64,000 bases of DNA from assembly GCA_016235665.1 (NCBI GenBank), contig JACRJI010000013.1, positions 143,095-207,094 of the forward strand. Direction: 5' to 3'. Below the pieces are notes generated by a model. The model did no database searches. It was not told where the DNA came from and was given only the letters and a program-made list of their open reading frames with translations. Position numbers and translations under genes: made by a program. Below are positions 6,925 through 56,034 of this stretch, piece after piece; position 1 is the first letter of the stretch, and each line of letters starts with the position of its first letter. Source of the stretch: a candidate division TA06 bacterium. GTDB lineage: Bacteria; Edwardsbacteria; AC1; EtOH8.

Positions 6925-7132
6925 AATTAATTAGAGATAAATAATTGCATATTGTGTAAAATATGCATCATTTCCCGGAAACCGAAATAGTTATAGAGTT
7001 ATCTAACTTATAATCCCCTTTACAGTCCATTGAATTTAAAGACCTTGCAGCTTTTGGTAAAACAGTCAAAGCGAAGAGATCCGGCACTATTCTTGCAGTA
7101 ATATTCTTCAATATATAAAACATGGAGAAAAC

Positions 7133-26741: not shown

Positions 26742-26758
26742 CATTATAAAAAGGTCGT

Positions 26759-27679
26759 ATGCTTAATAAAGTCACTACCATCAGGCAGGAAAAGGAAAAA
26801 GAATTTGTTGTCTGCAACAACTGTGGATCAAATCAACCGGTAAAATGCTTCGTCATTCAGGGGTTTCAAATAGTGGACTGCACCAAATGCGGTTTGCGTT
26901 ATGTGAACCCCCGATTGACCTCTGAAGCCATTAAGGTTCTCTACACTATTGATTATTTTAAAAGTGACGACTCAGTAGTGTATGGGTATGATGATTACAT
27001 CGCTGAACATGATACCATAATAAAAACATTCCAAAAACGCTGGAATAAATTGTCCGGTTATCTCCCCAAAACCGGTTCAATGCTTGATATTGGTGCCGCC
27101 TGTGGTTTTCTGATGGAAGTGGCCAAATATAACGGCTGGCAGTCCCGGGGGCTTGAAGTATCAGCCGATATGGCGAAGTTGGGCCATGATCAATACGGGC
27201 ATGATATTATGGTAGGGGCTCTCACGCACCCCGAACTTCAGCCCTCCAGTTATGATCTGATCACTATGTGGGATACCATAGAACACTCCCCGGATCCGGT
27301 TGGCGACTTGAAAAGAATTGGGAGATTGCTGAAACCCGGCGGTGTTTTGTCACTGATCACTCCAGATAGCGGAAGCCTGCATGCTAGAATATTCGGATCA
27401 AAATGGGTTGAATATCAGCGGCCACAGGAACATATCTATTTTTTCTCTCATCAATTGCTTGAAAAAATATTAAAACAGAATGGATTTGAAATCGCATGGT
27501 CCGGTACTGCCGGTAAATATGTAAGTTGGAAGTTTGCCCTGAACAGATTGCGCTGTTATTGGCCGGGTCTTATAAAAGTAGCAGAGTGGATCATGAAAAA
27601 AACAGGTATATATGAAACATTTACGTATATTGATCCCAAAGATAAGATGTCCATAGTGGCCAGAAAGAAAAAGGGGTAG
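26759..27679 (+). CDS. class I SAM-dependent methyltransferase with N-terminal CxxC...CxxC zinc ribbon
   Basis: CNNCGS...CTKCG zinc ribbon followed by a Methyltransf_11/23-like fold (LDIGAACGFLME, motif I). Confidence 0.7.
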   Translation: MLNKVTTIRQEKEKEFVVCNNCGSNQPVKCFVIQGFQIVDCTKCGLRYVNPRLTSEAIKVLYTIDYFKSDDSVVYGYDDYIAEHDTIIKTFQKRWNKLSGYLPKTGSMLDIGAACGFLMEVAKYNGWQSRGLEVSADMAKLGHDQYGHDIMVGALTHPELQPSSYDLITMWDTIEHSPDPVGDLKRIGRLLKPGGVLSLITPDSGSLHARIFGSKWVEYQRPQEHIYFFSHQLLEKILKQNGFEIAWSGTAGKYVSWKFALNRLRCYWPGLIKVAEWIMKKTGIYETFTYIDPKDKMSIVARKKKG

Positions 27680-27682
27680 CAG

Positions 27683-29338
27683 ATGGGCCGGAAATCAAAA
27701 CAGAATAAAACAGCTGCACCCCTTGCAGCACCCAAAGGCAAATTGCACCGATTAACGGGCTTTATTGAAAACCATCGTCTATTAGTGTTGTTCGCATGTT
27801 TAGTCATCGTGCTGTTGGCGGCTCTGATATCTTTTGATCCTAAACAATCCACTGGTGGTGATAACGGCACCTATATTTCCCTGACCCGGTCTTTGCTGGA
27901 TGGAAAGGGTTATCGTGATCTGTATATGCCGGGCGAACCGTACCATCACCAATACCCTTTTGGATATCCCTTATTGTTGGCAGCGATCGGCGCTTTTTTT
28001 AACCAATCATTTTTGATGTATAATATATTTTCGGTAATCTGCCTGATCGCAGGTTGTTGGGTAGTGTATGGATTAATGCACCGTTTATCCGGGAGCGAGG
28101 GTGATTGGCGGTCAGTATTACCGGTGACGATTGTGTTGCTGACAGGGCTAAATCCTTCTCTGCTTGAATTCTCACACTTGGCCCTGACAGAGATCCCGTA
28201 TTGTTTTTTTAGTTTGACTGGTTTGTTGCTGATCCTGCGGTCTGAACGCGAGCAGGGACTGTCCTATGTGTTATTGATCTTGGGACTAATTGTTTCGGCC
28301 TACAGCTATTATATTCGCCCCAACGGCATAACCTTACTTGGAGCGATAGTGATATATTTTATGTTTCGACGCAATTGGAAGGCGGTGATAATTACCGCAA
28401 TCGGAGCGTTGATTTTGTTGCTGCCTTGGACCGTTTACAACCACCAAACCGGTAGCGGTATGGGACAATCGGTAAGCATATTTTTCACCAAGGATGTTTA
28501 TAATCTTGACGCTGGAAGATTGGGATTTTTTGATATGTTGGGGCGGATGGTGGAAAATTGGCAAATATATTTCGGGTCTGTTTTACCGGCCATGTTTTTG
28601 CCGGTGGCTGGGACAGCGATCTCCGGTTTAGCCGGAGGCGGTAGAATTGCCGTTGCTGTGATCTGCTTCGGAATACTTATGACCGGCATAGTGACACAAT
28701 GGCGCCGGCAAGGGGTGCTTATTGGTTTGTATCTGACTGGGTATATACTTTTGACTTTAGTTTGGCATCCCACGGTCAGCAGCGACCGCTATCTTGTCCC
28801 GGTATATCCGTTGTTGTTATATTTTAGTTTATTTGGAGTAATTTGGCTGACGAACCAAATTGATGTTGTTTTAACCAAAGCAGTCATACCAGTACTGACG
28901 ATGATACTGCTGATAGCCGCAGCGGCCATTATTCTTCCCGAGGTAGCCAGCAATATGGAGATGCAGTCCGCCTACCGTAAGGGAGACCATCTGGCCGGAT
29001 ACGATCCGGCCTGGCGCAGTTTCTTCACCGCCGCGGAGTGGGTCAAAGCCAGCACCACGGAAAACAGCATCGTGGTTTCCCGCAAACCATCATTGTTCTT
29101 CCTTTCAGCTCAGAGGAAAACATTCTGCTATCCTTTCACCGCCAACCGGGATTCGGTTTTGAAAGTGATAGACCGGGCCGATTACGTGATGGTGGAACCG
29201 GTCAGCGGCACCGGGCAAAAATACCTGATCCCGGCCATCCAGCCGCTGCTGGACAAGAAATATAAAATCATATATGCCCAGGGCGAACCGCCCACCTATG
29301 TACTGCAGATAATAAAGGAGAATCCCAATGCCAGATAA
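27683..29338 (+). CDS. GT-C fold polytopic membrane glycosyltransferase (ArnT/PMT_2-like)
   Basis: Multiple TM helices, first periplasmic loop with D-x-Y motifs (GDNGTYISLTRSLLDGKGYRD), C-terminal soluble domain. Confidence 0.6.
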   Translation: MGRKSKQNKTAAPLAAPKGKLHRLTGFIENHRLLVLFACLVIVLLAALISFDPKQSTGGDNGTYISLTRSLLDGKGYRDLYMPGEPYHHQYPFGYPLLLAAIGAFFNQSFLMYNIFSVICLIAGCWVVYGLMHRLSGSEGDWRSVLPVTIVLLTGLNPSLLEFSHLALTEIPYCFFSLTGLLLILRSEREQGLSYVLLILGLIVSAYSYYIRPNGITLLGAIVIYFMFRRNWKAVIITAIGALILLLPWTVYNHQTGSGMGQSVSIFFTKDVYNLDAGRLGFFDMLGRMVENWQIYFGSVLPAMFLPVAGTAISGLAGGGRIAVAVICFGILMTGIVTQWRRQGVLIGLYLTGYILLTLVWHPTVSSDRYLVPVYPLLLYFSLFGVIWLTNQIDVVLTKAVIPVLTMILLIAAAAIILPEVASNMEMQSAYRKGDHLAGYDPAWRSFFTAAEWVKASTTENSIVVSRKPSLFFLSAQRKTFCYPFTANRDSVLKVIDRADYVMVEPVSGTGQKYLIPAIQPLLDKKYKIIYAQGEPPTYVLQIIKENPNAR

Positions 29339-30287
29339 GATCAATCTCTCGGTGGTGATTCCGGTCTACAACGAGGAAGAGAACATAGCCGAACTTTCAT
29401 CGCGGCTAACCAAGGTTTGTCAGTCCCTGGGAAAAAGCTACGAAATACTGTATGTGGACGATGGAAGCAGGGACGGGACGCTTGAAGCCATTAAAAAAGC
29501 AAAGTTGAAGGATAATAATATTTATGCAATCAGCCTGGCTAAAAACTTTGGCAAGTCGGGTGCCTATGCCGCCGGCTTCCATGAAGCCAAAGGGGACGTG
29601 ATAATCACCATGGACGGTGACCTTCAGGACCGGCCAGAACAGATCCCGGATTTTCTTAAAAAGATCGAAGAGGGATACGACCTGGTCACCGGCTGGAAGT
29701 ATACCGGGAAGGGGAAAAGGGCTTTGTCTTCAATCCTTTTCAACGGTCTGGTGCAAAGGCTCACTAAACTCAGAAGTATTCATGATACAAATTGTCCCTT
29801 TAAGGCCTACAAAGCCGAGATCGTAAGCAGCCGGGAAGAGAACAAGAACGCGGGATTGTGGATCTATGGCAATCTATACCGCTTCATTCCAGCCATGGCC
29901 TTTTGGAAGGGTTACCGGGTGACCGAGATCAAAGTTGAGAATGATCCCCGCCGATACGGGCATACAAAATACGGGCCAACTAGATTTGTCGGAGGATTTT
30001 TAGATCTCTTAACTATTGTATTTATCACCCAATACATAAAAAGACCTTTATATTTTTTTGCAATGATTGGTTTGTCCCTTCTATGCACCGGATTTTTATT
30101 TGACTTAGGCATAGTCCTATATGGCATTGTTTATGAAGGCAGGGTTGGCCATTTTGCAATGTTGATTTTGGGTCTTATTTGCATAGTGATTGGCATCCAG
30201 TTCATTTTTACGGGACTGCTGGCGGAAATGATAGTCCGCCTGCATCAGGAACAGCGAAGAGATATTCCTGTTTACAGGAAACAATAA
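29328..30287 (+). CDS. GT2 glycosyltransferase, ArnC/GtrB-like undecaprenyl-phosphate sugar transferase with C-terminal TM helices
   Basis: LSVVIPVYNEEENI, YVDDGSRDGT, MDGDLQDRPEQIP plus two C-terminal TM helices, as in ArnC/GtrB. Confidence 0.8.
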   Translation: MPDKINLSVVIPVYNEEENIAELSSRLTKVCQSLGKSYEILYVDDGSRDGTLEAIKKAKLKDNNIYAISLAKNFGKSGAYAAGFHEAKGDVIITMDGDLQDRPEQIPDFLKKIEEGYDLVTGWKYTGKGKRALSSILFNGLVQRLTKLRSIHDTNCPFKAYKAEIVSSREENKNAGLWIYGNLYRFIPAMAFWKGYRVTEIKVENDPRRYGHTKYGPTRFVGGFLDLLTIVFITQYIKRPLYFFAMIGLSLLCTGFLFDLGIVLYGIVYEGRVGHFAMLILGLICIVIGIQFIFTGLLAEMIVRLHQEQRRDIPVYRKQ

Positions 30288-30302
30288 TCTTTCGCAATAT
30301 AT

Positions 30303-31646
30303 TTGTTATTGGTGAAGAAAATATTTAAAAATCATTTTTTGCTGTTAGTTTTAACTGCGGCAAGCTTTTTTGCTTACAATGGACAGGACCTTCCTGATTA
30401 CGACGATGCGGCCATAACTTACCGCTATGCCGAAAACCTCGCGTCAGGCAATGGGTTTGTATATAACGTTGGGGAAAGGGTGCTGGGAACGACCACGCCG
30501 CTGTTCACTTTGTTGTTGGCGCTGGGAATAAAGCTGGGGACAAAGGTTCACTTGGTGTCTGCAATATTTTCTTTTCTATCCCTGGCTGCATCGGTATTGC
30601 TGTTATACCGCAAAAGCAATCTTCCCGGGAAGTTCTTTGTATTGTTTCTGCTTAATGTCCAGATAATGATAGGCGCGACCTGCGGAATGGAATGCGGGTT
30701 GTATTTTTTAATAGCATTGGCTGTTTTTTTGCTTTGGCAGGGCAAACACTATCTTTGGTCCGGTTTGGCAGGGGGGCTGGCTATGCTGACAAGGCCTGAC
30801 GGTATATTGGTGATTATTGCGCTCTTGGCTGCCTCTTTTTGGTCAGTTAAAAAGGGGATATCAGGGAAGCCTCTTTTACTGCTGTTGCTGGGTTTTTCGA
30901 TTGTGGCCGCTCCATGGCTGGTGTTCAGCTGGAGGTATTTTGGCGATATCCTGCCGATGAGTTTTTATGCCAAGGTCCACGGAGGGGTGAATGTTGATAT
31001 CCTATGGAGTCTTATTTACAAAAGCTTTTATCTGGTGCCATTTTTCATCATGGGGTTTTATTCCATGATGAAAAAGGCAAAGCAGGGGTGCTATGAGATC
31101 AGATTTTACCTGGCTGTCTGGTTCGTTCTTTATGCCCTGGCCTTCATCTTGATGAATCTGACCGAGAGAATGGTGTGGTATGTTTACCCGTTGGAAATGA
31201 TATATGTGTTGTTCTCATTGGACGGCTTGCAAATGGCTGGGCGTGCGATTGGTCACAGAAAAATACGCCCGGTCTGGCTGTTCGTTCCCTTTATCGCTGT
31301 TGCATTGTCATTTTACGGGTACGGACTCTACACCTATCACCGCTGGTTGAACGGGAAGGAAACAGCCAAGATTGAAGCCGGAGTCTGGTTATCTCAGAAT
31401 ACCCCCCAAAACGCCGTGGTGGCATGCCATACATCTCTGGGACAGGTGGGGTATTATTCCCGGAGAAAGATGGTGGACAATGCCGGATTGATAAATCCAA
31501 AATACGATTTTGAAACATTGATAAAAACATACCAGCCGGATTATATAAAAAGCCAGAAAGTGCTCAGCTTTTCCGGTTACATATTGGTTTATTGCCAGCC
31601 CATCAAAGGATTTGATGATTATATGATGATATATCAACGTATTTGA
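30303..31646 (+). CDS. polytopic membrane protein, putative GT-C-type glycosyltransferase
   Basis: TTG start per track. 10-12 TM helices. N-terminal DDAxITYRYAENLASGNGFVYN motif typical of some GT-C families. Final gene of the glycosylation cluster. Confidence 0.45.
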   Translation: MLLVKKIFKNHFLLLVLTAASFFAYNGQDLPDYDDAAITYRYAENLASGNGFVYNVGERVLGTTTPLFTLLLALGIKLGTKVHLVSAIFSFLSLAASVLLLYRKSNLPGKFFVLFLLNVQIMIGATCGMECGLYFLIALAVFLLWQGKHYLWSGLAGGLAMLTRPDGILVIIALLAASFWSVKKGISGKPLLLLLLGFSIVAAPWLVFSWRYFGDILPMSFYAKVHGGVNVDILWSLIYKSFYLVPFFIMGFYSMMKKAKQGCYEIRFYLAVWFVLYALAFILMNLTERMVWYVYPLEMIYVLFSLDGLQMAGRAIGHRKIRPVWLFVPFIAVALSFYGYGLYTYHRWLNGKETAKIEAGVWLSQNTPQNAVVACHTSLGQVGYYSRRKMVDNAGLINPKYDFETLIKTYQPDYIKSQKVLSFSGYILVYCQPIKGFDDYMMIYQRI

Positions 31647-31653
31647 AGGATTC

Positions 31654-40752: not shown

Positions 40753-41037
40753 ATGGCTAAAATGACCGAGGTTCCGGGGAACAACAGGAAGCACCAGGTG
40801 GTGCTTTATGCCCTGTCCACCTGCATCTGGTGCAAGAAGACCAAGAAGCTGCTGGACGACCTGGACATTCATTACCGCTATGTATTTGTGGACCTGCTGA
40901 CCGGCAGGGAAGAACAGGAGATCATGGACCAGGTCAGGGAATTCAATCCAGGCTGCACTTTTCCCACCATGGTGATAGACAACGAAAAAGTGATAGTGGG
41001 CCTGAAAGAGCCGGAGATAAAGAAGGTTTTGGAATGA
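40753..41037 (+). CDS. glutaredoxin-like thioredoxin-fold protein (CxxC)
   Basis: VVLYALSTCIWCKKTKKLL CxxC active site in a ~90-aa glutaredoxin/NrdH-like fold. ATGA overlap with the downstream gene. Confidence 0.75.
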   Translation: MAKMTEVPGNNRKHQVVLYALSTCIWCKKTKKLLDDLDIHYRYVFVDLLTGREEQEIMDQVREFNPGCTFPTMVIDNEKVIVGLKEPEIKKVLE

Positions 41038-41534
41038 GGACGGCAGGGGAGATCGAGGCGGAGATCCTGGAGCTGGCCCAAAAAGAGGGCTACACCCTGA
41101 ACCCGGACCGGGAGATCAGGGAAGGGATCATAGAGGGCATCGCAGTCAATGAAGAGCGGCTGGGATACTGGAACTGCCCCTGCCGCAGGGCTTCGGGCGA
41201 CCGCAACACCGATCTGGACATAGTGTGCCCCTGCCAGTACCGGGACGCCGATCTGAAAGAACACGGCCGGTGTTACTGCGCGCTGTATGTCAACCAAGAG
41301 TATCTTGGCCGGGGATCGCCGCCGGAGCCGATACCGGAGAGAAGGCCTATTTCCAAGGTTCAAAAGGTTGTAAAGGCGGAAAATGTTCAAGAGGTTCCGC
41401 CGGGGAAGGAAGAAGACATAAAGGTTTGGAGATGCACGGTCTGCGGGTATCTCTGCGCCAGAAGCGAGGCCCCGCCCATCTGTCCCATCTGCCGGGCCAA
41501 GAAGGAGAGGTTCGAGGAATTTAGCCTTGTATAA
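41034..41534 (+). CDS. ferredoxin-thioredoxin reductase catalytic-subunit-like protein fused to a C-terminal rubredoxin-type zinc ribbon
   Basis: FTR-C signature CPC(x16)CPC(x14)CYC, including WNCPCRR...DIVCPCQYRD...HGRCYCALYV. C-terminal CTVCGY...CPICRA rubredoxin knuckles. The track ORF 40830 is in-frame upstream read-through. ATG at 41034 overlaps the glutaredoxin stop. Confidence 0.7.
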   Translation: MRTAGEIEAEILELAQKEGYTLNPDREIREGIIEGIAVNEERLGYWNCPCRRASGDRNTDLDIVCPCQYRDADLKEHGRCYCALYVNQEYLGRGSPPEPIPERRPISKVQKVVKAENVQEVPPGKEEDIKVWRCTVCGYLCARSEAPPICPICRAKKERFEEFSLV

Positions 41535-41555
41535 ATGTTATTTTAAGTATTTTAT

Positions 41556-41595
41556 GAAAAATCCCCCAAAAAATATTTTTGGGGGATTTTTCATT
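41556..41595 (+). terminator. rho-independent terminator (GAAAAATCCCCCAAAAAA-ta-TTTTTGGGGGATTTTTC)
   Basis: Perfect long stem with flanking T-run after the FTR-rubredoxin gene. Confidence 0.85.
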
Positions 41596-41647
41596 AGTTG
41601 TTTTATCTTAAATATTTGACAAAAATGGTTAAAATTACAAGCAATCC

Positions 41648-41661
41648 TGACATAAATGTCA
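41648..41661 (+). promoter_or_regulatory. 14-bp perfect palindrome TGACATAAATGTCA (candidate enhancer-binding-protein site, UAS-1)
   Basis: About 200 bp upstream of a sigma-54-type promoter. A second near-identical palindrome lies 101 bp downstream. Confidence 0.4.
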
Positions 41662-41749
41662 AAAGGCATGACAAATAGGTCATGGTAACATAACAATATA
41701 AAATGCAATGTGTTGAAAAGTAAAAAAATCTTAATAACGCGTCGAACAG

Positions 41750-41763
41750 GACATTTATGTCAG
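41750..41763 (+). promoter_or_regulatory. palindrome GACATTTATGTCAG (candidate UAS-2)
   Basis: 13/14 identical to the reverse complement of UAS-1. Centre lies about 95 bp upstream of the -24 element. Confidence 0.4.
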
Positions 41764-41848
41764 GTTTTTAATAAAAAAGTATTAATTATTAAAAACAATC
41801 AAATTAATAACTATATGAACAACAAATGATTAGATTACGTATAAAATT

Positions 41849-41863
41849 ATGGCACAGTAATTG
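41849..41863 (+). promoter_or_regulatory. sigma-54 (-24/-12) promoter TGGCAC-N5-TTGC
   Basis: Exact match to the RpoN consensus TGGCACnnnnnTTGC, about 58 nt upstream of the first small secreted paralog. Confidence 0.6.
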
Positions 41864-41920
41864 CTATTATAATAGAATGAATAAACTTAGAAAATACTAA
41901 CTTTAAACAAAGGGTTTAAA

Positions 41921-42250
41921 ATGAAAAAAGCAATTTTCGGGGTTCTGTTTGTTGCGATAATTGCTTCACTTGCTTTTGCCGGGATATTTCTTTGTTATGG
42001 CTATGCAAGTGTTGGCGAAGGCTGGACAATTTCATGTCCAAGTATAAGCAACACGGGAACAGATATAACAGATTCAGATGGGTATTTTTCAATTACTAGA
42101 GGTGATGTACCAGCTGGCACCGAGTATTATTTGAAAGCCACTAAAACGGGGTATATAGCAATGTATAGTGCAATTTATACCTTCGGTGGTTCGACATATG
42201 GTGATAATTTAGGAAATGTTGCATTTCATAAGGGACTGCCAGTGGAATAA
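41921..42250 (+). CDS. small secreted protein, paralog family member 1 (109 aa)
   Basis: Sec signal peptide MKKAIFGVLFVAIIASLAFA. Family motifs GWTISCPS, YYLKA and GG..G.V.F. AT-rich coding sequence. Confidence 0.7.
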   Translation: MKKAIFGVLFVAIIASLAFAGIFLCYGYASVGEGWTISCPSISNTGTDITDSDGYFSITRGDVPAGTEYYLKATKTGYIAMYSAIYTFGGSTYGDNLGNVAFHKGLPVE

Positions 42251-42432
42251 GGAAATAACATTACCGAATGTATTCTAAATTTATTCACAAATCCTCCTGG
42301 CTTAGTTTACAAAGTCAAAAGGGACTCACAGCATTAGAGAGAAATGGTATCAATAAAGCAGTGCGGCACCTTTGGAATTACATTCTGCTTAAAGTGTAAT
42401 AACTTAGAGGGAACTTTAGAAAGGATTTATTA

Positions 42433-42780
42433 ATGAAGAAGATTTTACTTGGTGTAATTCTTGTAGCAAGCATTGCTTCAGTTGCTTTTGCTTTGCCTTG
42501 GATGGTAACAGCTACTTCAACCAATGTTAAAGGATGGACGATTTCTGTACCCGGCGCACCGACCTCAATTCCAAATGTTGCAAATCAAGGCGACTCAGGG
42601 TCAGGTTTTTATATACAATGGTCAGGCACTGCTCCAGCAACTGGCGGCTATTATTGCAAAGCAGATTCAACCGGAAAAGCCTCAAGATATTATGGTTGGT
42701 GGTGGTATGATGTTACTTATGGGGATACACAACTTGGAGCAATTACATTCGGGACCAGGCTGCCAGCTAATCCATATTAA
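42433..42780 (+). CDS. small secreted protein, paralog family member 2 (115 aa)
   Basis: Signal peptide MKKILLGVILVASIASVAFA. Family motifs GWTISVPG, YYCKADSTG and G..TF. Confidence 0.65.
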   Translation: MKKILLGVILVASIASVAFALPWMVTATSTNVKGWTISVPGAPTSIPNVANQGDSGSGFYIQWSGTAPATGGYYCKADSTGKASRYYGWWWYDVTYGDTQLGAITFGTRLPANPY

Positions 42781-42982
42781 TCAATAGTAATAAAGTTAAC
42801 AATCAATAAAAATCCCTCTAAGTTATTTCTCTTTTCACATAGGATAAACTGTCTGTTTTATTATAAGTAACATTTAAATACTATGGAAAATGAAACAATC
42901 TGGCATAACGGTAAAAGTTATAACAAATAACAATAACAAAAACTAAAAAAGTGAGTGGTAAAACTCAAGAAAGGACCGGTAA

Positions 42983-43321
42983 ATGAAAAAAGCGATCATC
43001 ATCCTATCACTTCTCGTACTATGTGCCAGTTCAATAGCACTAGCAGTACCTGCCTGGTGCAATGGGAAGGCAAAATTGGGGATAAAATATTTAAATGGCT
43101 GGACAATACAAGTAAGTAACGGGACTTATGGTTGGGCGATAGCGCAGCCAGACTCAGGGTATTTTGGCATGTCATACTCTACGCATCCGCCTGCCGGTTA
43201 TTTTTCTTTTACAGCAGATTCCTCTGGCCAATCACGGCTATTTTCAAATGAATACTATTATGACGGATCTTCCTATGGGGTGCAGTACGGTACGGTACCA
43301 TTTTATACTTCGCCCAGATAA
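42983..43321 (+). CDS. small secreted protein, paralog family member 3 (112 aa)
   Basis: Signal peptide MKKAIIILSLLVLCASSIALA. Motifs NGWTIQVS, FTADSSG and YG..P. Confidence 0.65.
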   Translation: MKKAIIILSLLVLCASSIALAVPAWCNGKAKLGIKYLNGWTIQVSNGTYGWAIAQPDSGYFGMSYSTHPPAGYFSFTADSSGQSRLFSNEYYYDGSSYGVQYGTVPFYTSPR

Positions 43322-43406
43322 ACGATAAACGTACATTCACGTTTAGTTTTTCAATGAACTGAAACTTACTGCCAGTTCAATAATAAATATACATCATGCG
43401 AAAATT

Positions 43407-43421
43407 ATGGTATGGTAATTG
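43407..43421 (+). promoter_or_regulatory. sigma-54-like promoter TGGTAT-N5-TTGC upstream of paralog 4
   Basis: GG and GC dinucleotides at canonical -24/-12 spacing within an ~85-bp leader that is ~80% identical to the leader of paralog 1. Confidence 0.45.
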
Positions 43422-43480
43422 CGTTAATAATGTATTGAATAAACTTAAAAAACACTAACTTAAAAAACAAAGGACTTCAA

Positions 43481-43813
43481 ATGAAAAAAGCAATTTTCGG
43501 GATTCTGTTTATCTCAATATTTGTAGCAGGGGCATTTGCTGCATTGTTTCTATGCGATGGAAAAGCAAGTTTAGGAACTGGTTGGACAATATCATGTCCT
43601 TCAATTGCTGGCACTGGAACATGGACAACCACCTCAGATAGTTTATTTGCAATAGTTAGAACTACGACACCACAGACAGGAACCTACTACTATTTAAAAG
43701 CAGAAAGCGGATCAACAACGCGTTATTCTGATTGGTACCAATATGGAGGTGGCATGGATCACCTAGGCTTAGTGAACTTTAATTTAACTAGACCTCCTCT
43801 AATGGAACAATAA
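43481..43813 (+). CDS. small secreted protein, paralog family member 4 (110 aa)
   Basis: Signal peptide MKKAIFGILFISIFVAGAFA, nearly identical to member 1. Motifs GWTISCPSI, YYYLKAESG and GG....G.V.F. Confidence 0.7.
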   Translation: MKKAIFGILFISIFVAGAFAALFLCDGKASLGTGWTISCPSIAGTGTWTTTSDSLFAIVRTTTPQTGTYYYLKAESGSTTRYSDWYQYGGGMDHLGLVNFNLTRPPLMEQ

Positions 43814-43842
43814 ATTAAAATATTTTAAGTTTATTCATAAAA

Positions 43843-43878
43843 CCCCGGACTTTGTTCCCAAAGTCCGGGGTTTTATCT
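43843..43878. terminator. bidirectional rho-independent terminator (CCCCGGACTTTG-ttcc-CAAAGTCCGGGG + TTTTAT)
   Basis: Perfect 12-bp stem with T-run on + and A-run on - sides, between convergent genes. Confidence 0.8.
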
Positions 43879-43900
43879 TGGCGCAGAGCGGCCGGCTGGT

Positions 43901-44404
43901 TTAAAACGGCGCGAAGCGGTTGGCCTCCCAGTAGGAGGCTTGTAAAAACTGCTGCTGCTTGATCAGTGCCTCCAAATGCAGCTCTTCCCAGCGGATCAGG
44001 GCGTTGAACAGCCGCTTGATCTTGAGCTCCTTGGCCTGGCGGCGGTAATTCTTGTAGCCCTCGATGGAATTCTGCTCCAGCAGTATCCCGATGGACAGGG
44101 CCGACATCTCGTAGTGCTTGTCGCCCACCCGTTGCTTGAACTCGGGGCTGAAGATGGGGCTTTCCTGGGCCGGGTCCACCTTGGACTTGATCCGGGGAGG
44201 CTTTAACTTCATACTTCCCTGCTTTTGATGATCGGAGAACATCAGCTCCAGGGTCTTGTGATGCGACAGCTCGTCCTCGGCCAGCTGGCCGAACATCTGT
44301 TTGGCCTTGGGATCCTCGGTGCGCTGGGCCGCAGTAGTGTAGTGATGATAGCCGTCGTTCTCAAACTGCATGGCCTCCACCAGGGAGCGGGAAAAATCAT
44401 CCAT
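43901..44404 (-). CDS. rubrerythrin/ferritin-like di-iron protein
   Basis: Two E..H-type four-helix-bundle motifs (EDELSHH, EELHLE). Start moved to the ATG at 44404, which has the RBS AAAGGAG 7 nt upstream. The track ORF starts 26 codons earlier. Confidence 0.65.
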   Translation of the reverse strand: MDDFSRSLVEAMQFENDGYHHYTTAAQRTEDPKAKQMFGQLAEDELSHHKTLELMFSDHQKQGSMKLKPPRIKSKVDPAQESPIFSPEFKQRVGDKHYEMSALSIGILLEQNSIEGYKNYRRQAKELKIKRLFNALIRWEELHLEALIKQQQFLQASYWEANRFAPF

Positions 44405-46917: not shown

Positions 46918-47421
46918 TTATACCCTTTTTTCGTAATGTTTTGTTAATGTCTTATTGTATTCTTCATCTACATGGAATGCAGTAACCCAGTAATACTTTG
47001 TTTTTTTATGTTGTAAAATCAAACAATAATTGTATTCTCTTAGCCAAATATTTCTACGTACCCCTTTATTTTGGGGACCTTCCTTATAATCAAAAATTGT
47101 AATTTCGGGTCTTGTTCCGCTAGTCATAATAACTTTAGCCCATGGTAATCTTTCGGCACGCCGGTAATCTGGAAGCCTTTCTTTAATTCCGCCTTCAGAC
47201 AATTGATCTTTACTAACAACATGCCAAAATCCCTCTTCTTTGCCCTGTCCATCTTCATTTATCGTTCTATTATAATCGACACGTAGGTTATTGTGAAAGG
47301 TTGAATTCCATTTAAAATCGGTGACAAAAATTTTATAAAGTTCATCTACGATAGTACTCCATTCACCAGCCATTGGTAATAAGGGTGGCAAAAAACTGCC
47401 ATTGTCGTTACTTTGTGGCAT
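46918..47421 (-). CDS. hypothetical 167-aa protein (no recognisable family), AT-rich, translationally coupled to the DUF3800 gene
   Basis: 14-nt overlap with the stop of the upstream DUF3800 gene. GC content is far below the genome average. No signal peptide or TM segment. Confidence 0.55.
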   Translation of the reverse strand: MPQSNDNGSFLPPLLPMAGEWSTIVDELYKIFVTDFKWNSTFHNNLRVDYNRTINEDGQGKEEGFWHVVSKDQLSEGGIKERLPDYRRAERLPWAKVIMTSGTRPEITIFDYKEGPQNKGVRRNIWLREYNYCLILQHKKTKYYWVTAFHVDEEYNKTLTKHYEKRV

Positions 47422-48124
47422 TATTTTTCTCTCTCGGCAAAAAAGTAAAAATATTAAACTTATCTTCCCATGGTGCTGTTGTTTCTGTTAAAGTAAGTTT
47501 AACTTTTGCTTTTATCAACTCTATTAGTGAAAGTTTAGCTGTACTTTCTATTAAACCTCTATTTACATAAGAGAGTGCACCAATAAAGAAATCTGCAATT
47601 TGTAATATTTCACTTTCTTTTGATCTAATTTGTTGCATTATATTAATTATCTCATGCGAATTGGTTGGATAACTATTCTTTAAAATATCTTTTAATGTGT
47701 TTATTTTTATTTGACTTTGGGTGTCCTTAATATCCATAAAAATATTATATACGGACTCGCATGTAATCATATTGCGCAGTAAGTAATAATACATTTTATA
47801 ATAAAATGAGTCATGGCTACCTTGATTATAATATTGATGATCAAGGTTTTTTTTATTTTTTACGACAACACATCTAAAACCTAAATCGTTTTGGGAGAAA
47901 AAATATTCAATTATATCTCTATAATAATCTAATCGTGAGTTTGATACTTTTTGCCATTTTAATTCCCCACGACAGCTATGCTTTTCTTTTAATTGACGTA
48001 ACTCTTCTGTTATATGTCGAACTTTTTCTATAGGACATTTTACAGCCCCTAATAGCATGACTTCTTGCTTGTCATGCTCCAGATGACAGCTTTCATCACA
48101 ATAAATATTAATAATAGAAGCCAT
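47408..48124 (-). CDS. DUF3800-family protein
   Basis: N-terminal IINIYCDES (DES motif) and C-terminal LQIADFFIGAL (QxxD motif), which from memory are the two signature motifs of Pfam DUF3800. AT-rich. Start placed at MASIIN. Confidence 0.65.
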   Translation of the reverse strand: MASIINIYCDESCHLEHDKQEVMLLGAVKCPIEKVRHITEELRQLKEKHSCRGELKWQKVSNSRLDYYRDIIEYFFSQNDLGFRCVVVKNKKNLDHQYYNQGSHDSFYYKMYYYLLRNMITCESVYNIFMDIKDTQSQIKINTLKDILKNSYPTNSHEIINIMQQIRSKESEILQIADFFIGALSYVNRGLIESTAKLSLIELIKAKVKLTLTETTAPWEDKFNIFTFLPREKNNATK

Positions 48125-48149
48125 GCTCGATTCTCTTAAGGTTGTTAAT

Positions 48150-49610
48150 TTATCCAACATTAACCGTTAGCATTTCTATACTCTTTTGAACTCTTTTCAA
48201 TGTCTCCTCTTTCCCTAGTATCTCCGCCAGTTCCGTGGCCCCGCCGGGGGTGACCTCGCGGCCGGAGAGGGCTATGCGCAGAGGCGTAAGGAAGGTGTTG
48301 GCCTTTACCCCCAGCGTCTCTACCACCACATACAGCGCCTGCTTGATGGTCTCATGGTCCCAGCTTCCCAGTTTCTCCAGTTCCGCCCGGCAGGTCTTAA
48401 GGTATTCCAGGGAATTCATCAGGTCGGTCTTGGCCTTTTTGTTGACGAACATTTCCTTTGCATATTCCGGCAGGGCATCGATGAAATCCACCCGGGCCGG
48501 GATGTCCGACAGCACCACGGTGCGCTGTTGCATCAGACCGGACAGCTTGCGCAGGTCAATTCCCGGGCTTTTGACGGCCTGCTGCAGCCAAGGCAGGGCT
48601 GCTTCGTAAAAGATCTCGGGCGTCATTTTGCGGATATACTCGCCGTTCATCCATTTCAACTTCTCCACGTCGAAGATGGCCGGGGAATTGTTCAGCCCGG
48701 CCACGGAGAAGACCTTCTTCAACTCATCCAATGAAAATATCTCCCGTTCATCCTTGGGGTTCCATCCCAGCAGGGCGATGTAATTGACGATAGCCTCCTT
48801 GAGATACCCCTGATTATAGAAATCTTCGAAGGAGGCGTCGCCCTCGCGCTTGGAAAGCTTCTTTCCTGCTGCCTTCATGATCAAGGGCAGGTGGATGTAG
48901 GCCGGGATCTCCCATTCCAGGGCCTGATAGATCAGGTTGTACTTGGGGGCCGAGGACAGGTATTCGCTGCCGCGGATGACGTGCGATATCTGCATCAGGT
49001 GGTCGTCCACCACGTTGGCGAAGTTGTAGGTGGGCAGGCCGTCTGACTTCAACAGGATCCCGTCCTCCAAGGTGGAGTTCTCCACCGTCACTGTGCCGTA
49101 GACCAGGTCGTCAAAGCTGGTGGAGCCCCCGCGGGGGATCTTCTGGCGAATCACTGAAGGCTCGCCCGAGGCCGCCCGTTTCTTGGCCTCTTCCGGACCG
49201 ATGTCCCGGCAGGGGTCCTGGAATTTGACGGCAGTATTGTTCCCGCCGGCTTCCTGGCGCAGGGACTCCAGCTTCTCCTTGCTGCAGAAACAGTAATAGC
49301 CGCCGTCCCTGGCGATAAGCTTTTCGGCCCATTCCTTATAGATGCTTTTCCGCTGGCTCTGGACATAGGGGCCGAAGGGGCCGCCGATATCCGGGCCCTC
49401 GTCATGTTCCAGACCCACCAGTTTCATTGTATTATAGATCACCTCGACCGAGCCCTCCACCAGCCGTTCCTGGTCGGTGTCCTCGATCCGCAGGATGAAC
49501 TTACCGTTCATGGTGCGGGCGATCAGGTAGGCATAGAGGGCGGTGCGAAGATTGCCGATGTGCATGTAGCCGGTGGGGCTGGGGGCGAAGCGGGTGCGGA
49601 CAGTAGGCAT
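48150..49610 (-). CDS. gltX: glutamyl-tRNA synthetase
   Basis: RTRFAPSPTGYMHIGNLRTALYAYL (HIGH), KLSKR KMSKS-like motif, GluRS architecture. Start at MPTVRTRF. Confidence 0.9.
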   Translation of the reverse strand: MPTVRTRFAPSPTGYMHIGNLRTALYAYLIARTMNGKFILRIEDTDQERLVEGSVEVIYNTMKLVGLEHDEGPDIGGPFGPYVQSQRKSIYKEWAEKLIARDGGYYCFCSKEKLESLRQEAGGNNTAVKFQDPCRDIGPEEAKKRAASGEPSVIRQKIPRGGSTSFDDLVYGTVTVENSTLEDGILLKSDGLPTYNFANVVDDHLMQISHVIRGSEYLSSAPKYNLIYQALEWEIPAYIHLPLIMKAAGKKLSKREGDASFEDFYNQGYLKEAIVNYIALLGWNPKDEREIFSLDELKKVFSVAGLNNSPAIFDVEKLKWMNGEYIRKMTPEIFYEAALPWLQQAVKSPGIDLRKLSGLMQQRTVVLSDIPARVDFIDALPEYAKEMFVNKKAKTDLMNSLEYLKTCRAELEKLGSWDHETIKQALYVVVETLGVKANTFLTPLRIALSGREVTPGGATELAEILGKEETLKRVQKSIEMLTVNVG

Positions 49611-55404: not shown

Positions 55405-56034
55405 ATGACCAGATCTGTTATAATGTTTACATTGTTACTTGGTATCTATAGTATATCGAATGGAGATACGCTGGACGTTAAAACGCCCGGAAAATTTAAT
55501 GGAAGGTATCATATATCGTTTGGTCTTGTTAATTATTACACTGCCAATGTATTTACATTTCCAAACAACCTGGATAGTACAAGAAACGATAGTTTTAACA
55601 GCTTTGATTGTAAAGGATTGTCAGTTTGCCTTAGATATACACTCAACAAAAATGTTGATTTTACTGCCGAATACTGGAGGTGGACTGGAATGTCCGGGAA
55701 ACCTTATGCAAGAGATTTAATATATCCTAAAGTGGATGGGTTTGGTTTGGGGATACAACATAATATTAATGAATTCTGTGACCTATTTGATCCCATTATC
55801 AAAGCCAATATCAATTATTATCGCGAAACAATTGATCAATATACAGATAGTACGGGTTCTATGAATCTGTTTTCAGAGTATACTTTTGGTTTTTGTGCAG
55901 TCATTGGTAGTGATTGGAAAATATCAAAACACTTCTCAATACCAGGTACTATAGGATATCACTTTATAAAAGGGAATAAAGATTTTTCTGGATTGGATTT
56001 TAATTTTGGAGTAAGCTATAACTTTGGGAAATAA
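55405..56034 (+). CDS. AT-rich hypothetical secreted protein, probable small outer-membrane beta-barrel
   Basis: Signal peptide, alternating hydrophobic/hydrophilic beta-strand pattern, aromatic-rich C-terminus (GVSYNFGK). GC much lower than neighbours. Confidence 0.5.
   Translation: MTRSVIMFTLLLGIYSISNGDTLDVKTPGKFNGRYHISFGLVNYYTANVFTFPNNLDSTRNDSFNSFDCKGLSVCLRYTLNKNVDFTAEYWRWTGMSGKPYARDLIYPKVDGFGLGIQHNINEFCDLFDPIIKANINYYRETIDQYTDSTGSMNLFSEYTFGFCAVIGSDWKISKHFSIPGTIGYHFIKGNKDFSGLDFNFGVSYNFGK

What the first reader, a model, noticed from the sequence alone, without database searches (positions are those of the whole stretch)
41535..43880. Family of four tandem, diversified ~110-aa secreted paralogs in a low-GC islet
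There are four consecutive small ORFs (109, 115, 112 and 110 aa). Each has a typical Sec signal peptide (MKKAI.. ...AFA) and shares short blocks (GWTIS[CV]P, YY[LC]KA.SG, GG..G.V.F), but the mature regions are otherwise strongly diverged. Each sits behind its own long AT-rich leader. The genes and leaders are much lower in GC than the surrounding genome. The pattern (conserved leader and signal peptide, hypervariable ~90-aa mature domain, tandem amplification) resembles bacteriocin-like, lectin-like or surface-antigen multigene families. I do not recognise the family.
Basis: seen in the sequence. Interest (0 to 1): 0.75.

Follow-up and report, generated by a model that had tools for sequence, protein, structure and literature searches.

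The report
Inducible cassettes for small secreted proteins
A strain-variable, low-GC islet in a candidate-division TA06 genome carries four genes for small exported beta-sandwich proteins of a very rare family; it is unusual because a conserved sigma-54 switch drives it and each gene sits between matching sequences predicted to tie the two ends of its mRNA together.

Summary
Four + strand ORFs (109, 115, 112 and 110 aa) are true paralogs with Sec-type signal peptides. They lie in a 2.3-kb islet with GC3 0.26-0.38, against 0.70-0.82 in the flanking genes.

- **Family:** rare (22 representatives among 1.84 billion proteins) and absent from Pfam and NCBIfam. AlphaFold models (pLDDT 85-90) give a 7-strand transthyretin-like/CarboxypepD_reg-like sandwich.
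- **Not hypervariable:** three old subtypes each recur in other metagenomes, and every measurable dN/dS is 0.08-0.39.
- **The locus does vary:** the same chromosomal site holds 0, 1 or 4 copies in relatives, and two otherwise identical strains differ by a recombined allele.
- **Promoter:** a perfect sigma-54 promoter (the only one in 64 kb) sits behind three conserved GACAT-N2-ATGTC-type sites. Six loci share this module.
- **Bracketing repeat:** every family gene is flanked by a covarying inverted repeat linking its 5' and 3' UTRs (10 independent arm sequences; 0 of 200,000 permutations match).

My best reading is inducible, self-contained expression cassettes with an mRNA end-clamp. They make abundant exported binding or structural modules. 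Protein function is unproven, and nothing supports a bacteriocin.

The parts
41535..43839 (+). Accessory low-GC islet. It is inserted between the FTR/rubredoxin gene (ends 41534) and the shared bidirectional terminator/rubrerythrin gene.
   Evidence: The closest GTDB genomes, L004 and L005 (FTR 85-90% identical), have FTR followed within about 115-160 nt by the same terminator and rubrerythrin. They carry no family gene within 10 kb. GC is 0.24-0.44 against about 0.56 in the flanks.
41554..41594 (+). Intrinsic terminator of the upstream FTR/rubredoxin gene
   Evidence: A 19-bp perfect stem followed by a T-run (I4).
41649..41660 (.). Upstream site 1, GACATAAATGTC (a palindrome with 5-nt half-sites); a putative enhancer-binding-protein site
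   Evidence: This pattern has only two matches in 64 kb. The site is invariant in 6 loci and lies 201-202 nt upstream of the promoter in the window, L003, L025 and L001.
41670..41681 (.). Upstream site 2, GACAAATAGGTC, starting 21 nt (two helical turns) after site 1
   Evidence: Its position and GAC..GTC half-sites are conserved in the 6-locus alignment.
41750..41761 (.). Upstream site 3, GACATTTATGTC, 100 nt upstream of the promoter
   Evidence: It forms an 18-nt inverted repeat with site 1 (I7).
41850..41865 (+). Sigma-54-type promoter TGGCACagtaaTTGCT; predicted transcription start about 41876
   Evidence: It is the only perfect TGGCAC-N5-TTGCW in the window. The same element lies 69-72 nt before the ATG in L003, L025 and L001.
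41878..41892 (+). p1 5' UTR arm (TGAATAAACTTAGAA)
   Evidence: It is 93% complementary to 42273-42287 (I17). The helix is present in the whole-transcript minimum-energy fold with P>0.5.
41921..42250 (+). p1, 109 aa, subtype A (locus tag HZA73_08810)
   Evidence: AF2 pLDDT 84.8.
42273..42287 (+). p1 3' UTR arm (TTCTAAATTTATTCA)
42364..42379 (+). Degenerate sigma-54-like element before p2 (CGGCACctttgGAATTA). The -24 element is kept and the -12 GC is lost. It sits 69 nt before the ATG, as in L001 and L003.
   Evidence: Read from the sequence and compared in position. Function is doubtful; p2 may instead be read through from the p1 promoter, since no terminator lies after p1.
42391..42418 (+). 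p2 5' UTR arm
   Evidence: 28 nt, 86% complementary to 42807-42834 (I1). Duplex energy -30.2 kcal/mol, z -4.7.
42433..42780 (+). p2, 115 aa, subtype B (HZA73_08815)
   Evidence: It is 84% identical to P0005, with omega 0.08.
42807..42834 (+). p2 3' UTR arm
42938..42957 (+). p3 5' UTR arm
   Evidence: Duplex with 43334-43351, -16.4 kcal/mol, z -2.3. It is in the minimum-energy fold with 17 pairs.
42983..43321 (+). p3, 112 aa, subtype C (annotated 'DUF4148', a spurious match to the signal peptide)
   Evidence: AF2 pLDDT 90.3.
43334..43351 (+). p3 3' UTR arm
43408..43423 (+). Sigma-54-type promoter of p4 (TGGTATggtaaTTGCG), with GG and GC retained
   Evidence: It lies within a 65-nt stretch 82% identical to the p1 promoter and leader (D2).
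43436..43462 (+). p4 5' UTR arm
   Evidence: 27 nt, 81% complementary to 43811-43837 (I3). The core 15 bp pairs 43436-43450 with 43823-43837.
43481..43813 (+). p4, 110 aa, subtype A (HZA73_08825)
43811..43837 (+). p4 3' UTR arm
43837..43876 (.). Bidirectional intrinsic terminator shared with the convergent rubrerythrin gene; also present at the empty site in L004 and L005
   Evidence: An 18-bp perfect stem (I6). Homologous sequence is seen.

Best explanation
The islet is an accessory, strain-variable array of four self-contained expression cassettes. Each cassette encodes a Sec-exported, roughly 90-aa single-domain beta-sandwich protein. The fold is transthyretin-like/CarboxypepD_reg-like, and the family is rare and unannotated.

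**Proposed expression path (inferred):**
1. An unidentified enhancer-binding protein binds three GACAT-N2-ATGTC-type sites 100-200 nt upstream.
2. It activates sigma-54 promoters. These are intact before p1 and p4 and degenerate before p2 and p3, which may be read through.
3. The transcript starts 2-3 nt before a 5' arm. That arm pairs with a complementary arm just after the stop codon, so the mRNA ends are clamped together. This probably protects the message from 5'-end-dependent decay or defines an RNase III processing stem.
4. The protein is exported by Sec and cleaved after AxA.

**Proposed protein role (weakest part).** The mature proteins most likely act as abundant, non-enzymatic binding or structural modules in the periplasm or envelope.

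**Shown here:** paralogy, fold, rarity, purifying selection, presence/absence and allele mosaicism, conservation of the promoter and upstream sites, and covariation of the arms.

**Inferred only:** sigma-54 usage, the transcription start, RNA-level pairing, cellular location and protein function.
For: **Paralogy and organism:**

**Fold.**
- AF2 pLDDT is 84.8 for p1 and 90.3 for p3, both with 7 strands.
- Sub-threshold PF13620 hits occur in 5 of 20 members.
- hhalign to the PF13620-like neighbours in L002 gives 95.7% probability.

**Rarity:** 22 representatives with E<1e-3 among 1.84 billion proteins.

**Selection:** every computable omega is 0.08-0.39.

**Locus dynamics.**
- Empty site in L004 and L005.
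- Single copy in L003 and L025.
- L003 and L025 are 100% identical in the flank but 58-90% identical across leader, gene and terminator.
- GC3 is 0.26-0.38 against 0.70-0.82.

**Promoter.**
- It is the only perfect sigma-54 consensus in 64 kb.
- A relaxed pattern hits 3 times in the window, 2 of them before family genes. It hits exactly once in each of L001, L003 and L025, always 69-72 nt before the ATG, and never in L004-L009.

**Upstream sites.**
- Only two exact matches exist in the window.
- The architecture is conserved in six loci, including two that drive other secreted proteins.

**Clamp.**
- Inverted repeats bracket p1, p2 and p4.
- All 15 genes tested show it, with at least 10 unrelated arm sequences.
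- Cognate duplexes average -26.6 kcal/mol against -12.9 +/- 4.3 for non-cognate pairs; 0 of 200,000 permutations match.
- The helix is present in every whole-transcript minimum-energy fold with P>0.5.
- It is absent from the other 47 ORFs of the window (median z -0.1) and from the neighbours in L076.

**Precedent:** single-gene 5'/3' UTR pairings are known for hbs, icaR and RNAIII (PMC7821165, PMC5737220).
Against: - No rpoN or enhancer-binding-protein gene is present in the window or in any lineage locus I hold. Sigma-54 use therefore rests on sequence alone.
- p2 and p3 lack a proper -12 GC.
- Sense and antisense duplex energies are similar. The arms could therefore act at the DNA level or on the other strand.
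- The p1 and p4 arms are short and AT-rich, so their energy z-scores are modest (-1.7 and -1.3).
- Transcript ends are predicted, not mapped.
- Nothing tested here reveals what the proteins bind or where they end up.
- The conserved residues are fold-core positions.
- Pfam membership fails the gathering score (13.9-24.6 bits against 32.3).
Confidence: 0.55

Rival explanations
1. The bracketing inverted repeats act on DNA, not RNA. They would be recombination substrates that invert the coding segment relative to its fixed promoter (phase variation), or that promote cassette exchange at this hotspot.
For: - The repeats flank the coding sequence while the promoter lies outside them.
- The strand test shows no preference for the sense RNA.
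- The locus shows copy-number change and allele replacement.
- A 22-nt direct repeat (77% identical) marks both islet borders (D3).
Against: - All family genes seen with a recognisable sigma-54 promoter are in the ON orientation: p1, p4, L001, L003, L025 and L077.
- Arm sequences differ between cassettes (at least 10 classes). A sequence-specific invertase is therefore unlikely, and 15-28 bp is short for RecA.
- The duplicated p1/p4 unit and the indel relative to the empty site both extend beyond the arms.
- The 5' arm begins 2-3 nt after the predicted start, and the 3' arm abuts the terminator. That placement fits a transcript feature.
Confidence: 0.2
2. The proteins are periplasmic immunity or inhibitor proteins, forming an 'orphan immunity' array. 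They would neutralise incoming toxins, lysozymes or proteases from competitors.
For: - They are small, Sec-exported beta-sandwich proteins without a lipobox or T9SS tail, so they are periplasmic by default in a diderm.
- The array is low-GC and varies between strains by presence/absence and by allele mosaic.
- In L001 the neighbour is a secreted C11 peptidase.
- A candidate defence islet (PDC-M04) lies 3 kb away.
Against: - No similarity to known immunity or inhibitor families, and no PADLOC hit.
- No cognate effector genes are present.
- An enhancer-dependent sigma-54 promoter shared with large T9SS or BNR-like secreted proteins points to a secretome regulon rather than constitutive immunity.
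- The L001 protease adjacency does not recur elsewhere.
Confidence: 0.12
3. The proteins are subunits of a surface fibre, pilus or matrix layer that is produced in bulk on induction.
For: - The genes carry features typical of strongly expressed genes: a dedicated enhancer and sigma-54 promoter, a putative mRNA-stabilising clamp, an AAAGG Shine-Dalgarno sequence and a strong terminator.
- Fold neighbours include CnaB-type pilin domains, usher C-terminal domains and biofilm-associated proteins.
- Deep allelic divergence within conserved flanks resembles pilin loci.
Against: - No assembly machinery (usher, chaperone, sortase, secretin) lies next to any of the loci.
- The models are complete 7-strand sandwiches with no missing strand.
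- There is no class-III pilin signal peptide.
- The K88 fimbrial hit (E 0.14) covers only the signal peptide.
Confidence: 0.1
4. The proteins are Sec-dependent bacteriocins.
For: They are small secreted proteins in a diversified tandem family, in a strain-variable islet.
Against: - No immunity, ABC-transporter or processing genes lie in or beside the islet. The neighbours are FTR/rubredoxin and rubrerythrin.
- No hit to any bacteriocin family.
- Sec alone delivers a protein only to the periplasm of a diderm.
- Several loci carry a single gene with no partner.
- Purifying selection is as strong as on ordinary genes.
Confidence: 0.04

Closest known systems
Carboxypeptidase regulatory-like / transthyretin-like domains (Pfam PF13620, PF13715; structure 5aq0, transthyretin-like domain of human carboxypeptidase D)
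   Same: - The sequence motif is similar: G.(A/T)...G(W/A)T(I/V) ... D..G.F ... P.G.Y.L.A...G.
- PF13620 hits are sub-threshold.
   Different: - Here the domain is a stand-alone secreted protein, not part of a carboxypeptidase, a TonB-dependent receptor or an adhesin.
- Scores are far below Pfam's gathering threshold.
- It has its own GWTI signature and a Pro-rich C-terminal tail.
Stand-alone small transthyretin-fold proteins, such as Kustc1130 (hydrazine dehydrogenase assembly factor, 6hif_Y), ExsB pilotin (2yjl) and nematode TTR-52/transthyretin-like secreted proteins (3uaf)
   Different: There is no detectable sequence homology, the organisms and partners are unrelated, and no partner is identified here.
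X-module of type II dockerin (XDoc) in cellulosomal scaffoldins (5g5d_B, 4u3s_B)
   Different: The X-module is an internal stabilising domain next to a dockerin in Firmicutes. No dockerin or cohesin is present here.
5'UTR-3'UTR base-pairing within one bacterial mRNA: B. subtilis hbs (14 nt, protects from RNase Y), S. aureus icaR (RNase III substrate, blocks the ribosome-binding site), RNAIII/hld (PMC7821165; PMC5737220)
   Same: Complementary stretches of 15-28 nt in the 5' and 3' UTRs of the same gene are predicted to close the transcript.
   Different: - The known cases are single genes and are not conserved among orthologs (PMC7821165).
- Here the pairing is a family-wide trait kept by covariation across at least 10 arm classes and several lineages.
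- The arms spare the Shine-Dalgarno sequence, and the 5' arm starts at the predicted 5' end.
- Nothing has been tested experimentally.
Sigma-54 / bacterial enhancer-binding-protein promoters, such as NtrC-glnA, ZraR-zraP and PilR-pilA
   Same: - A TGGCAC-N5-TTGC element.
- Paired palindromic sites spaced 21 nt apart, 100-200 nt upstream.
- AT-rich DNA in between.
- Products that are exported or envelope proteins.
   Different: - The activator is unknown.
- The site sequence GACAT-N2-ATGTC is not one I can assign to a characterised activator.
- The one candidate regulator found beside such a site is a 1551-aa kinase-TPR-GAF-AAA+ protein in an unrelated contig (L029).

Membership tests
Pfam CarboxypepD_reg (PF13620) / transthyretin clan | HMM score at or above the gathering threshold (32.3 bits) | tested here: not met
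   p1 scores 13.9 bits. The best family member reaches E 6.4e-5, and only 5 of 20 members score at all. The L002 neighbours score 19.9-24.6 bits.
Pfam CarboxypepD_reg (PF13620) / transthyretin clan | Seven-strand transthyretin-like beta-sandwich fold | tested here: met
   [not shown]
Pfam CarboxypepD_reg (PF13620) / transthyretin clan | Profile-profile link to proteins that match the whole PF13620 model | tested here: inconclusive
   hhalign of A2 against the L002 trio gives 95.7% probability and E 8.5e-9 over 104 columns. The alignment includes the signal peptides, which inflate the score.
Sigma-54-dependent promoter with enhancer | -24 GG / -12 GC element matching TGGCAC-N5-TTGC, at a conserved distance from the gene | tested here: met
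   There is a perfect match at 41850-41865, the only one in 64 kb. The element lies 69-72 nt before the ATG in the window (p1, p4), L001, L003 and L025, and is absent from L004-L009.
Sigma-54-dependent promoter with enhancer | Upstream activator sites about 100-200 nt upstream, conserved | tested here: met
   Three GACAT-N2-ATGTC-type sites are present, with sites 1 and 2 spaced 21 nt apart, and they are conserved in 6 loci.
Sigma-54-dependent promoter with enhancer | rpoN and a cognate enhancer-binding protein encoded in the genome | not testable with these tools
   No GAFTGA or RpoN-box motif occurs in the window or in any lineage locus held. The rest of the 209-kb contig and the MAG could not be read.
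Sigma-54-dependent promoter with enhancer | Transcription start about 12 nt downstream of the GC, and dependence on sigma-54 | not testable with these tools
   This needs 5'-end mapping or genetics.
Bacteriocin locus (e.g. Sec-dependent lactococcin-972-like, or class II) | Adjacent immunity and/or ABC-transport or processing genes | tested here: not met
   The neighbours are DOMON, glutaredoxin, FTR/rubredoxin, rubrerythrins and glnS. Single-gene loci occur in L001, L003 and L025.
Bacteriocin locus (e.g. Sec-dependent lactococcin-972-like, or class II) | Sequence membership of a known bacteriocin family | tested here: not met
   No Pfam or NCBIfam bacteriocin hit was found. The only matches are faint NprX/Phr hits to the signal peptide.
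Pilins / fimbrial subunits | Class-III (prepilin) signal peptide, or adjacent chaperone-usher, sortase or secretin genes | tested here: not met
   The signal peptide is the classical AxA type. No assembly genes occur in any locus. The Fimbrial_K88 hit (E 0.14) covers residues 1-54 only.
Bacterial lipoproteins | Lipobox [LVI][ASTVI][GAS]C at the end of the signal peptide | tested here: not met
   The first Cys follows IFL, LFL or PAW, is absent in subtype B, and is not conserved across the family.
T9SS cargo | C-terminal Por_Secre_tail / FlgD_ig-type sorting domain | tested here: not met
   The proteins end 5-10 residues after the last strand and have no C-terminal sorting domain. Other proteins in the window and loci do carry one.
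Integron gene cassettes | Promoterless ORF followed by an attC site with RYYYAAC/GTTRRRY cores | tested here: not met
   Each gene has its own promoter-like leader. The repeats bracket the ORF instead of lying together at its 3' side, and no core-site motif is seen in the arms. An integrase was not searched for.
Intramolecular 5'UTR-3'UTR mRNA interaction (hbs/icaR type) | Complementarity between the 5' and 3' UTR of the same gene beyond chance, kept by compensatory change | tested here: met
   Ten independent arm classes were compared. The cognate partner is the best in 9 of 10 rows and 10 of 10 columns, and 0 of 200,000 permutations match. The helix is in all 9 whole-transcript folds.
Intramolecular 5'UTR-3'UTR mRNA interaction (hbs/icaR type) | The pairing acts in the sense RNA (G-U tolerated, A-C not) | tested here: inconclusive
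   Sense and antisense duplex energies are similar across 15 genes.
Intramolecular 5'UTR-3'UTR mRNA interaction (hbs/icaR type) | Both arms lie inside the transcript, and pairing affects stability or translation | not testable with these tools
   The arm positions fit the predicted start (+2/+3) and the terminator, but this has not been mapped.

The most novel reading that the evidence does not exclude
This gene family travels as a modular 'plug-and-play' expression cassette: enhancer, sigma-54 promoter, 5' arm, coding sequence, 3' arm, terminator. Its defining cis element is an end-to-end mRNA clamp that co-evolves with each gene. That would be the first family-wide, covariation-supported 5'/3' UTR closure of bacterial mRNAs. 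It would represent a new class of cis-acting mRNA architecture for mobile accessory genes, controlling message lifetime or RNase III maturation. It would also mark a previously unseen regulon of secreted proteins in TA06 and related FCB-group lineages.
Probability: 0.35. Interest if true: 0.8.

Novelty: new variant of a known kind. Interest (0 to 1): 0.62.

Why it matters
**mRNA biology.** Natural 5'/3' UTR pairing in bacterial mRNAs is known from only a handful of single genes, and a 2021 review says its generality is open (PMC7821165). Here a whole gene family keeps such pairing through at least 10 independent sequence changes, across several uncultured lineages. That gives a ready-made comparative data set and a design rule that can be tested directly with reporters.

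**Regulation in an uncultured phylum.** The finding defines a candidate enhancer-binding site and a sigma-54 regulon of secreted proteins in candidate division TA06.

**Protein family.** It adds a rare family of stand-alone transthyretin-fold secreted proteins. Its locus behaves like a strain-variable contingency locus, with 0-4 copies and recombined alleles.

**Limits.** The protein's function is still unknown, and nothing has been verified experimentally.

Tried and rejected
- **Family libraries.** Pfam, NCBIfam, PHROGs and PADLOC scans of p1-p4 found nothing above threshold. NCBI's 'DUF4148' label for p3 is a signal-peptide artefact.
- **RNA families.** An Rfam E-value scan of 41400-44000 gave only sub-threshold hits on the terminator hairpins.
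- **Related-locus searches.** I used the flanking FTR gene instead.
- **Viral contigs.** IMG/VR scans with p1 and p3 found no relatives.
- **Metagenome pattern scan.** I used the single metagenome scan on the pattern 'upstream site plus promoter'. It returned 49 stretches. None encodes a family member, and most look like chance or unrelated NtrC-type promoters. Only L034, L052 and perhaps L029 look related. The collection evidently does not hold the contigs that carry the family.
- **Structure library.** The AFDB50 fold library was unavailable.
- **Positive selection.** A dN/dS test was rejected as evidence: omega is below 1 wherever it could be computed.
- **Strand test for the arms.** The G-U asymmetry test was inconclusive. 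Three G-U mismatches I first read as support for the sense strand do not hold up in the overall comparison.
- **Disulfide.** A conserved disulfide (C25-C40 in p1) is not family-wide, since the Cys positions do not co-occur consistently.
- **Literature.** Searches on TA06 and on mRNA circularization found no description of this family or of the clamp.

Full report
**1. What is there.**

The + strand carries four ORFs:

| Gene | Coordinates | Length |
|---|---|---|
| p1 | 41921-42250 | 109 aa |
| p2 | 42433-42780 | 115 aa |
| p3 | 42983-43321 | 112 aa |
| p4 | 43481-43813 | 110 aa |

 tblastn of each protein against the window finds only these four. p1 and p4 are 54% identical (E 4e-28); the other pairs are 27-37% identical.

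Each starts with MKK, a hydrophobic core and A-x-A, which is the pattern of a signal-peptidase-I substrate. This is read from the sequence, as no predictor was available. GWTI, a Pro, a Tyr, an Ala and two Gly are invariant or nearly so.

The region is compositionally foreign. Coding GC3 is 0.26-0.38, against 0.70-0.82 in the flanking genes, and the four leaders (386, 182, 202 and 159 nt) have GC 0.24-0.34.

The proteins are identical to HZA73_08810, _08815 and _08825, plus a 'DUF4148' protein, of a candidate division TA06 MAG.

**2. What the proteins are.**

- **No library match.** No Pfam, NCBIfam, PHROG or PADLOC family is matched above threshold.
- **Rare family.** The word-indexed search of 5.8 billion clusters found 7 non-self relatives. 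An exhaustive HMMER profile search of 1.84 billion representatives found 22 proteins with E<1e-3. Nearly all are 107-128 aa with the same signal-peptide-plus-domain layout.
- **Confident models.** AlphaFold models of the two most different paralogs have pLDDT 84.8 for p1 and 90.3 for p3, above 90 over the mature domain. Both show the same seven strands.
- **Faint sequence link.** Sub-threshold hits to CarboxypepD_reg (PF13620) occur in 5 of 20 members.
- **Linked neighbours.** In two other contigs (L002, L026) a subtype-C member sits next to 2-3 tandem 121-131-aa secreted proteins. Those in L002 match PF13620 end to end at E 3e-5 to 9e-4 and align to the family by hhalign (95.7%, with the caveat that signal peptides are included).

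The family is therefore a divergent, stand-alone, exported transthyretin-like domain. It fails Pfam's score threshold, so I file it at fold level only. The conserved residues are fold-core positions, and nothing marks an active or metal-binding site.

**3. The paralogs are old, not hypervariable, but the locus is dynamic.**

- **Subtypes.** The relatives fall into three subtypes that mirror the window's paralogs:
  - A: p1, p4, P0007-P0009
  - B: p2, P0005, P0006
  - C: p3, P0010-P0016

  
- **Selection.** Nei-Gojobori estimates give omega 0.08-0.39 for every pair where it could be computed. Synonymous sites are saturated between p1 and its positional counterpart P0007 (dS > 2), while the flanking genes of the same two genomes have dS 0.2-0.5. 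The divergence is therefore ancient and under purifying selection.
- **Variable content at one site.** The chromosomal site between the FTR/rubredoxin gene and the convergent rubrerythrin gene differs between relatives:
  - empty in the two closest GTDB genomes, L004 and L005 (FTR 85-90% identical, same terminator)
  - one subtype-A gene in L003 and L025
  - a subtype-B gene next to rubrerythrin in L024
  - four genes in the order A-B-C-A in the window

  In L001 a single subtype-B gene lies before the same rubrerythrins and glnS, but with a different upstream neighbour.
- **Recombined allele.** L003 and L025 are 100% identical through FTR up to the first upstream site. Identity then drops to 58-90% across leader, gene, terminator and the first ~150 nt of rubrerythrin, and then returns to 98-100%. 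That is the footprint of an imported allele.

Other low-GC islets in the window have the same GC3, including a candidate defence system. This is consistent with a shared accessory gene pool.

**4. Regulation: a sigma-54 promoter and a conserved enhancer.**

- **Promoter.** TGGCACagtaaTTGCT at 41850-41865 is the only perfect TGGCAC-N5-TTGCW in 64 kb on either strand. A relaxed pattern ([TC]GG[CT]A[CT]-N5-TTGC) hits three times in the window:
  - before p1
  - before p4 (43408)
  - before a 1168-aa T9SS protease-like gene (7082)

  It hits exactly once in each of L001, L003 and L025, always 69-72 nt before the family ATG, and never in the 20-kb loci L004-L009.
- **Upstream sites.** Upstream lie GACATAAATGTC (41649), GACAAATAGGTC (41670, 21 nt later) and GACATTTATGTC (41750). 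The exact pattern occurs only twice in the window. Site 1 is 201-202 nt from the promoter in four loci.
- **A shared module.** A six-locus alignment shows that the whole architecture is conserved. It includes two contigs where the module drives other secreted proteins: a 611-aa T9SS cargo in L034 and a BNR-like protein in L052.
- **A lead on the activator.** In an unrelated contig (L029) such a site directly follows a 1551-aa kinase-TPR-GAF-AAA+ (GAFTGA) activator gene and precedes a sigma-54-like promoter. This is a lead only.
- **Weak points.** p2 and p3 keep a -24-like element but lack the -12 GC, and no terminator follows p1-p3, so they may be read through. No rpoN or activator gene is in the sequence I could read. 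Use of sigma-54 is therefore inferred.

**5. An unexpected feature: every gene is bracketed by a covarying inverted repeat.**

- **In the window.** The repeat finder reported arms flanking p1, p2 and p4, and RNAduplex adds p3:

| Gene | 5' arm | 3' arm | Match |
|---|---|---|---|
| p1 | 41878-41892 | 42273-42287 | 15 nt, 93% |
| p2 | 42391-42418 | 42807-42834 | 28 nt, 86% |
| p3 | 42938-42957 | 43334-43351 | -16.4 kcal/mol |
| p4 | 43436-43462 | 43811-43837 | 27 nt, 81% |

  
- **In relatives.** The same holds for every relative with both flanks available: L001, L002, L003, L024, L025, L026, L076 and L078. It also holds for three of the five neighbouring CarboxypepD_reg-like genes tested in L002 and L026.
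- **Placement.** The 5' arm ends 14-33 nt before the ATG, leaving the AAAGG Shine-Dalgarno sequence free. It begins 2-3 nt after the start predicted from the sigma-54 element. The 3' arm begins up to about 24 nt after the stop and abuts the terminator.
- **Covariation.** The arm sequences are unrelated between classes. Examples are UGAAUAAACUUAGAA, UAAUAACUUAGAGGGAAC, CCAAAAGCAAAAGGC, AACCUAUAGCAAGGGGU and CCUAACAGUUUUCAAA.
- **Statistics.** With one gene per class (10 classes), cognate duplexes average -26.6 kcal/mol against -12.9 +/- 4.3 for non-cognate pairs. The cognate partner is best in 9 of 10 rows and 10 of 10 columns, and 0 of 200,000 permutations reach the observed sum.
- **Whole-transcript folds.** In folds of nine 420-476-nt transcripts, the minimum-energy structure always contains the long-range helix (14-36 pairs, P>0.5).
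- **Specificity.** The other 47 ORFs of the window (median z -0.1) and the neighbours of P0017 in L076 show nothing similar.
- **Precedent.** Single-gene cases exist: hbs (a 14-nt pairing that protects against RNase Y), icaR (an RNase III substrate) and RNAIII. They are described as not conserved among orthologs (PMC7821165, PMC5737220).
- **Interpretation.** I read the repeat as an mRNA end-clamp that stabilises or matures the message.
- **Caveat.** Sense and antisense energies are similar, so a DNA-level role such as inversion or recombination is not excluded. Against that role: all genes with a recognisable promoter are in the ON orientation, the arm sequences differ between cassettes, and the units of duplication and insertion extend beyond the arms.

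**6. Function of the proteins.**

This is the weak point. In a diderm that uses T9SS tails for secretion, a plain Sec signal without a lipobox or sorting tail implies a periplasmic or envelope location. Stand-alone domains of this fold act by binding partners; Kustc1130, ExsB and TTR-52 are fold neighbours.

The strong, inducible expression apparatus is shared with large secreted proteins. Together with the strain-level turnover, this suggests abundant binding or structural modules at the cell's interface with its surroundings.

The immunity-array, fibre-subunit and bacteriocin readings are ranked lower, for the reasons given under the rival explanations. None is formally excluded except by the absence of partner genes.

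**7. Verdict.**

It is partly wrong: the family is neither hypervariable nor bacteriocin-like.

The protein is a new family within a known fold. The sigma-54/enhancer module is a new instance of a known mechanism. The family-wide covarying 5'/3' UTR bracket is, as far as the searched literature shows, undescribed.

Noticed in passing
window 46918-48160 (- strand): A second low-GC islet (GC3 0.22-0.27) lies between glnS and gltX. It encodes a two-gene candidate anti-phage system: PADLOC PDC-M04A (249 aa, E 1.5e-90) and PDC-M04B (166 aa, E 1.6e-37).
   Followed up: partly
window 6946-6967 and 7082-7097 (+), upstream of ORF 7133-10639: A sigma-54-like element, CGGCACtattcTTGCA, sits 51 nt before a 1168-aa T9SS-tailed protein that looks like a gingipain/C25 peptidase (not checked against any family library). 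A different palindrome (TGCATAT-N8-ATATGCA) lies about 130 nt upstream. This suggests a second enhancer-dependent secreted-protein gene.
   Followed up: no
window about 24480-31650 (+): A long low-GC stretch (GC 0.43-0.47) encodes a run of membrane glycosyltransferase-like proteins (ArnT/PMT-type), GT2-like proteins and a methyltransferase-like protein. It is probably a variable surface-glycan locus.
   Followed up: no
window 55405-56034 (+) and 18115-19194 (+): Two more low-GC ORFs encode exported proteins. One is a 209-aa outer-membrane-beta-barrel-like protein (GC3 0.28), between rpsA and cdsA. The other is a 359-aa protein with an N-terminal signal peptide and a candidate lipoprotein cysteine (GC 0.44).
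   Followed up: no
L002 789-2164 and L026 329-1431: Tandem 121-131-aa Cys-rich secreted proteins are linked to a subtype-C family member and to a thioredoxin-like protein; those in L002 match PF13620 over its whole length, sub-threshold. Three of the five also carry bracketing 5'/3' arms (z -4.4 to -5.6), so the clamp extends beyond the family.
   Followed up: partly
L029 357-5417: A 1551-aa Ser/Thr-kinase-TPR-GAF-sigma-54-AAA+ activator gene ends at 5012. It is followed at once by GACATAAATGTC, a sigma-54-like promoter (TGGCATtataaTTGCT) and a roughly 50-aa Pro-rich secreted peptide. It could be a model for the activator of the GACAT-N2-ATGTC sites.
   Followed up: no
L003 1735-2550 versus L025: Two contigs are 100% identical in the FTR gene but diverge to 58-90% identity exactly across the family leader, gene, terminator and the 3' end of rubrerythrin. 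Identity then returns to 98-100%. This is a recombination mosaic.
   Followed up: yes
window 41539-41560 and 43821-43842: A 22-nt direct repeat (77% identical; TATTTTAAGT.TT.T..AAAA) sits at both borders of the islet, each time just before a terminator hairpin. The left copy resembles a 3' arm, so it may be a scar of cassette gain.
   Followed up: no
window 41034-41534 and loci L010-L020: The flanking fusion protein (ferredoxin-thioredoxin-reductase catalytic subunit plus rubredoxin) has 45-53% identical relatives in several Candidatus Methanoperedens archaeal genomes. This is a possible inter-domain transfer.
   Followed up: no
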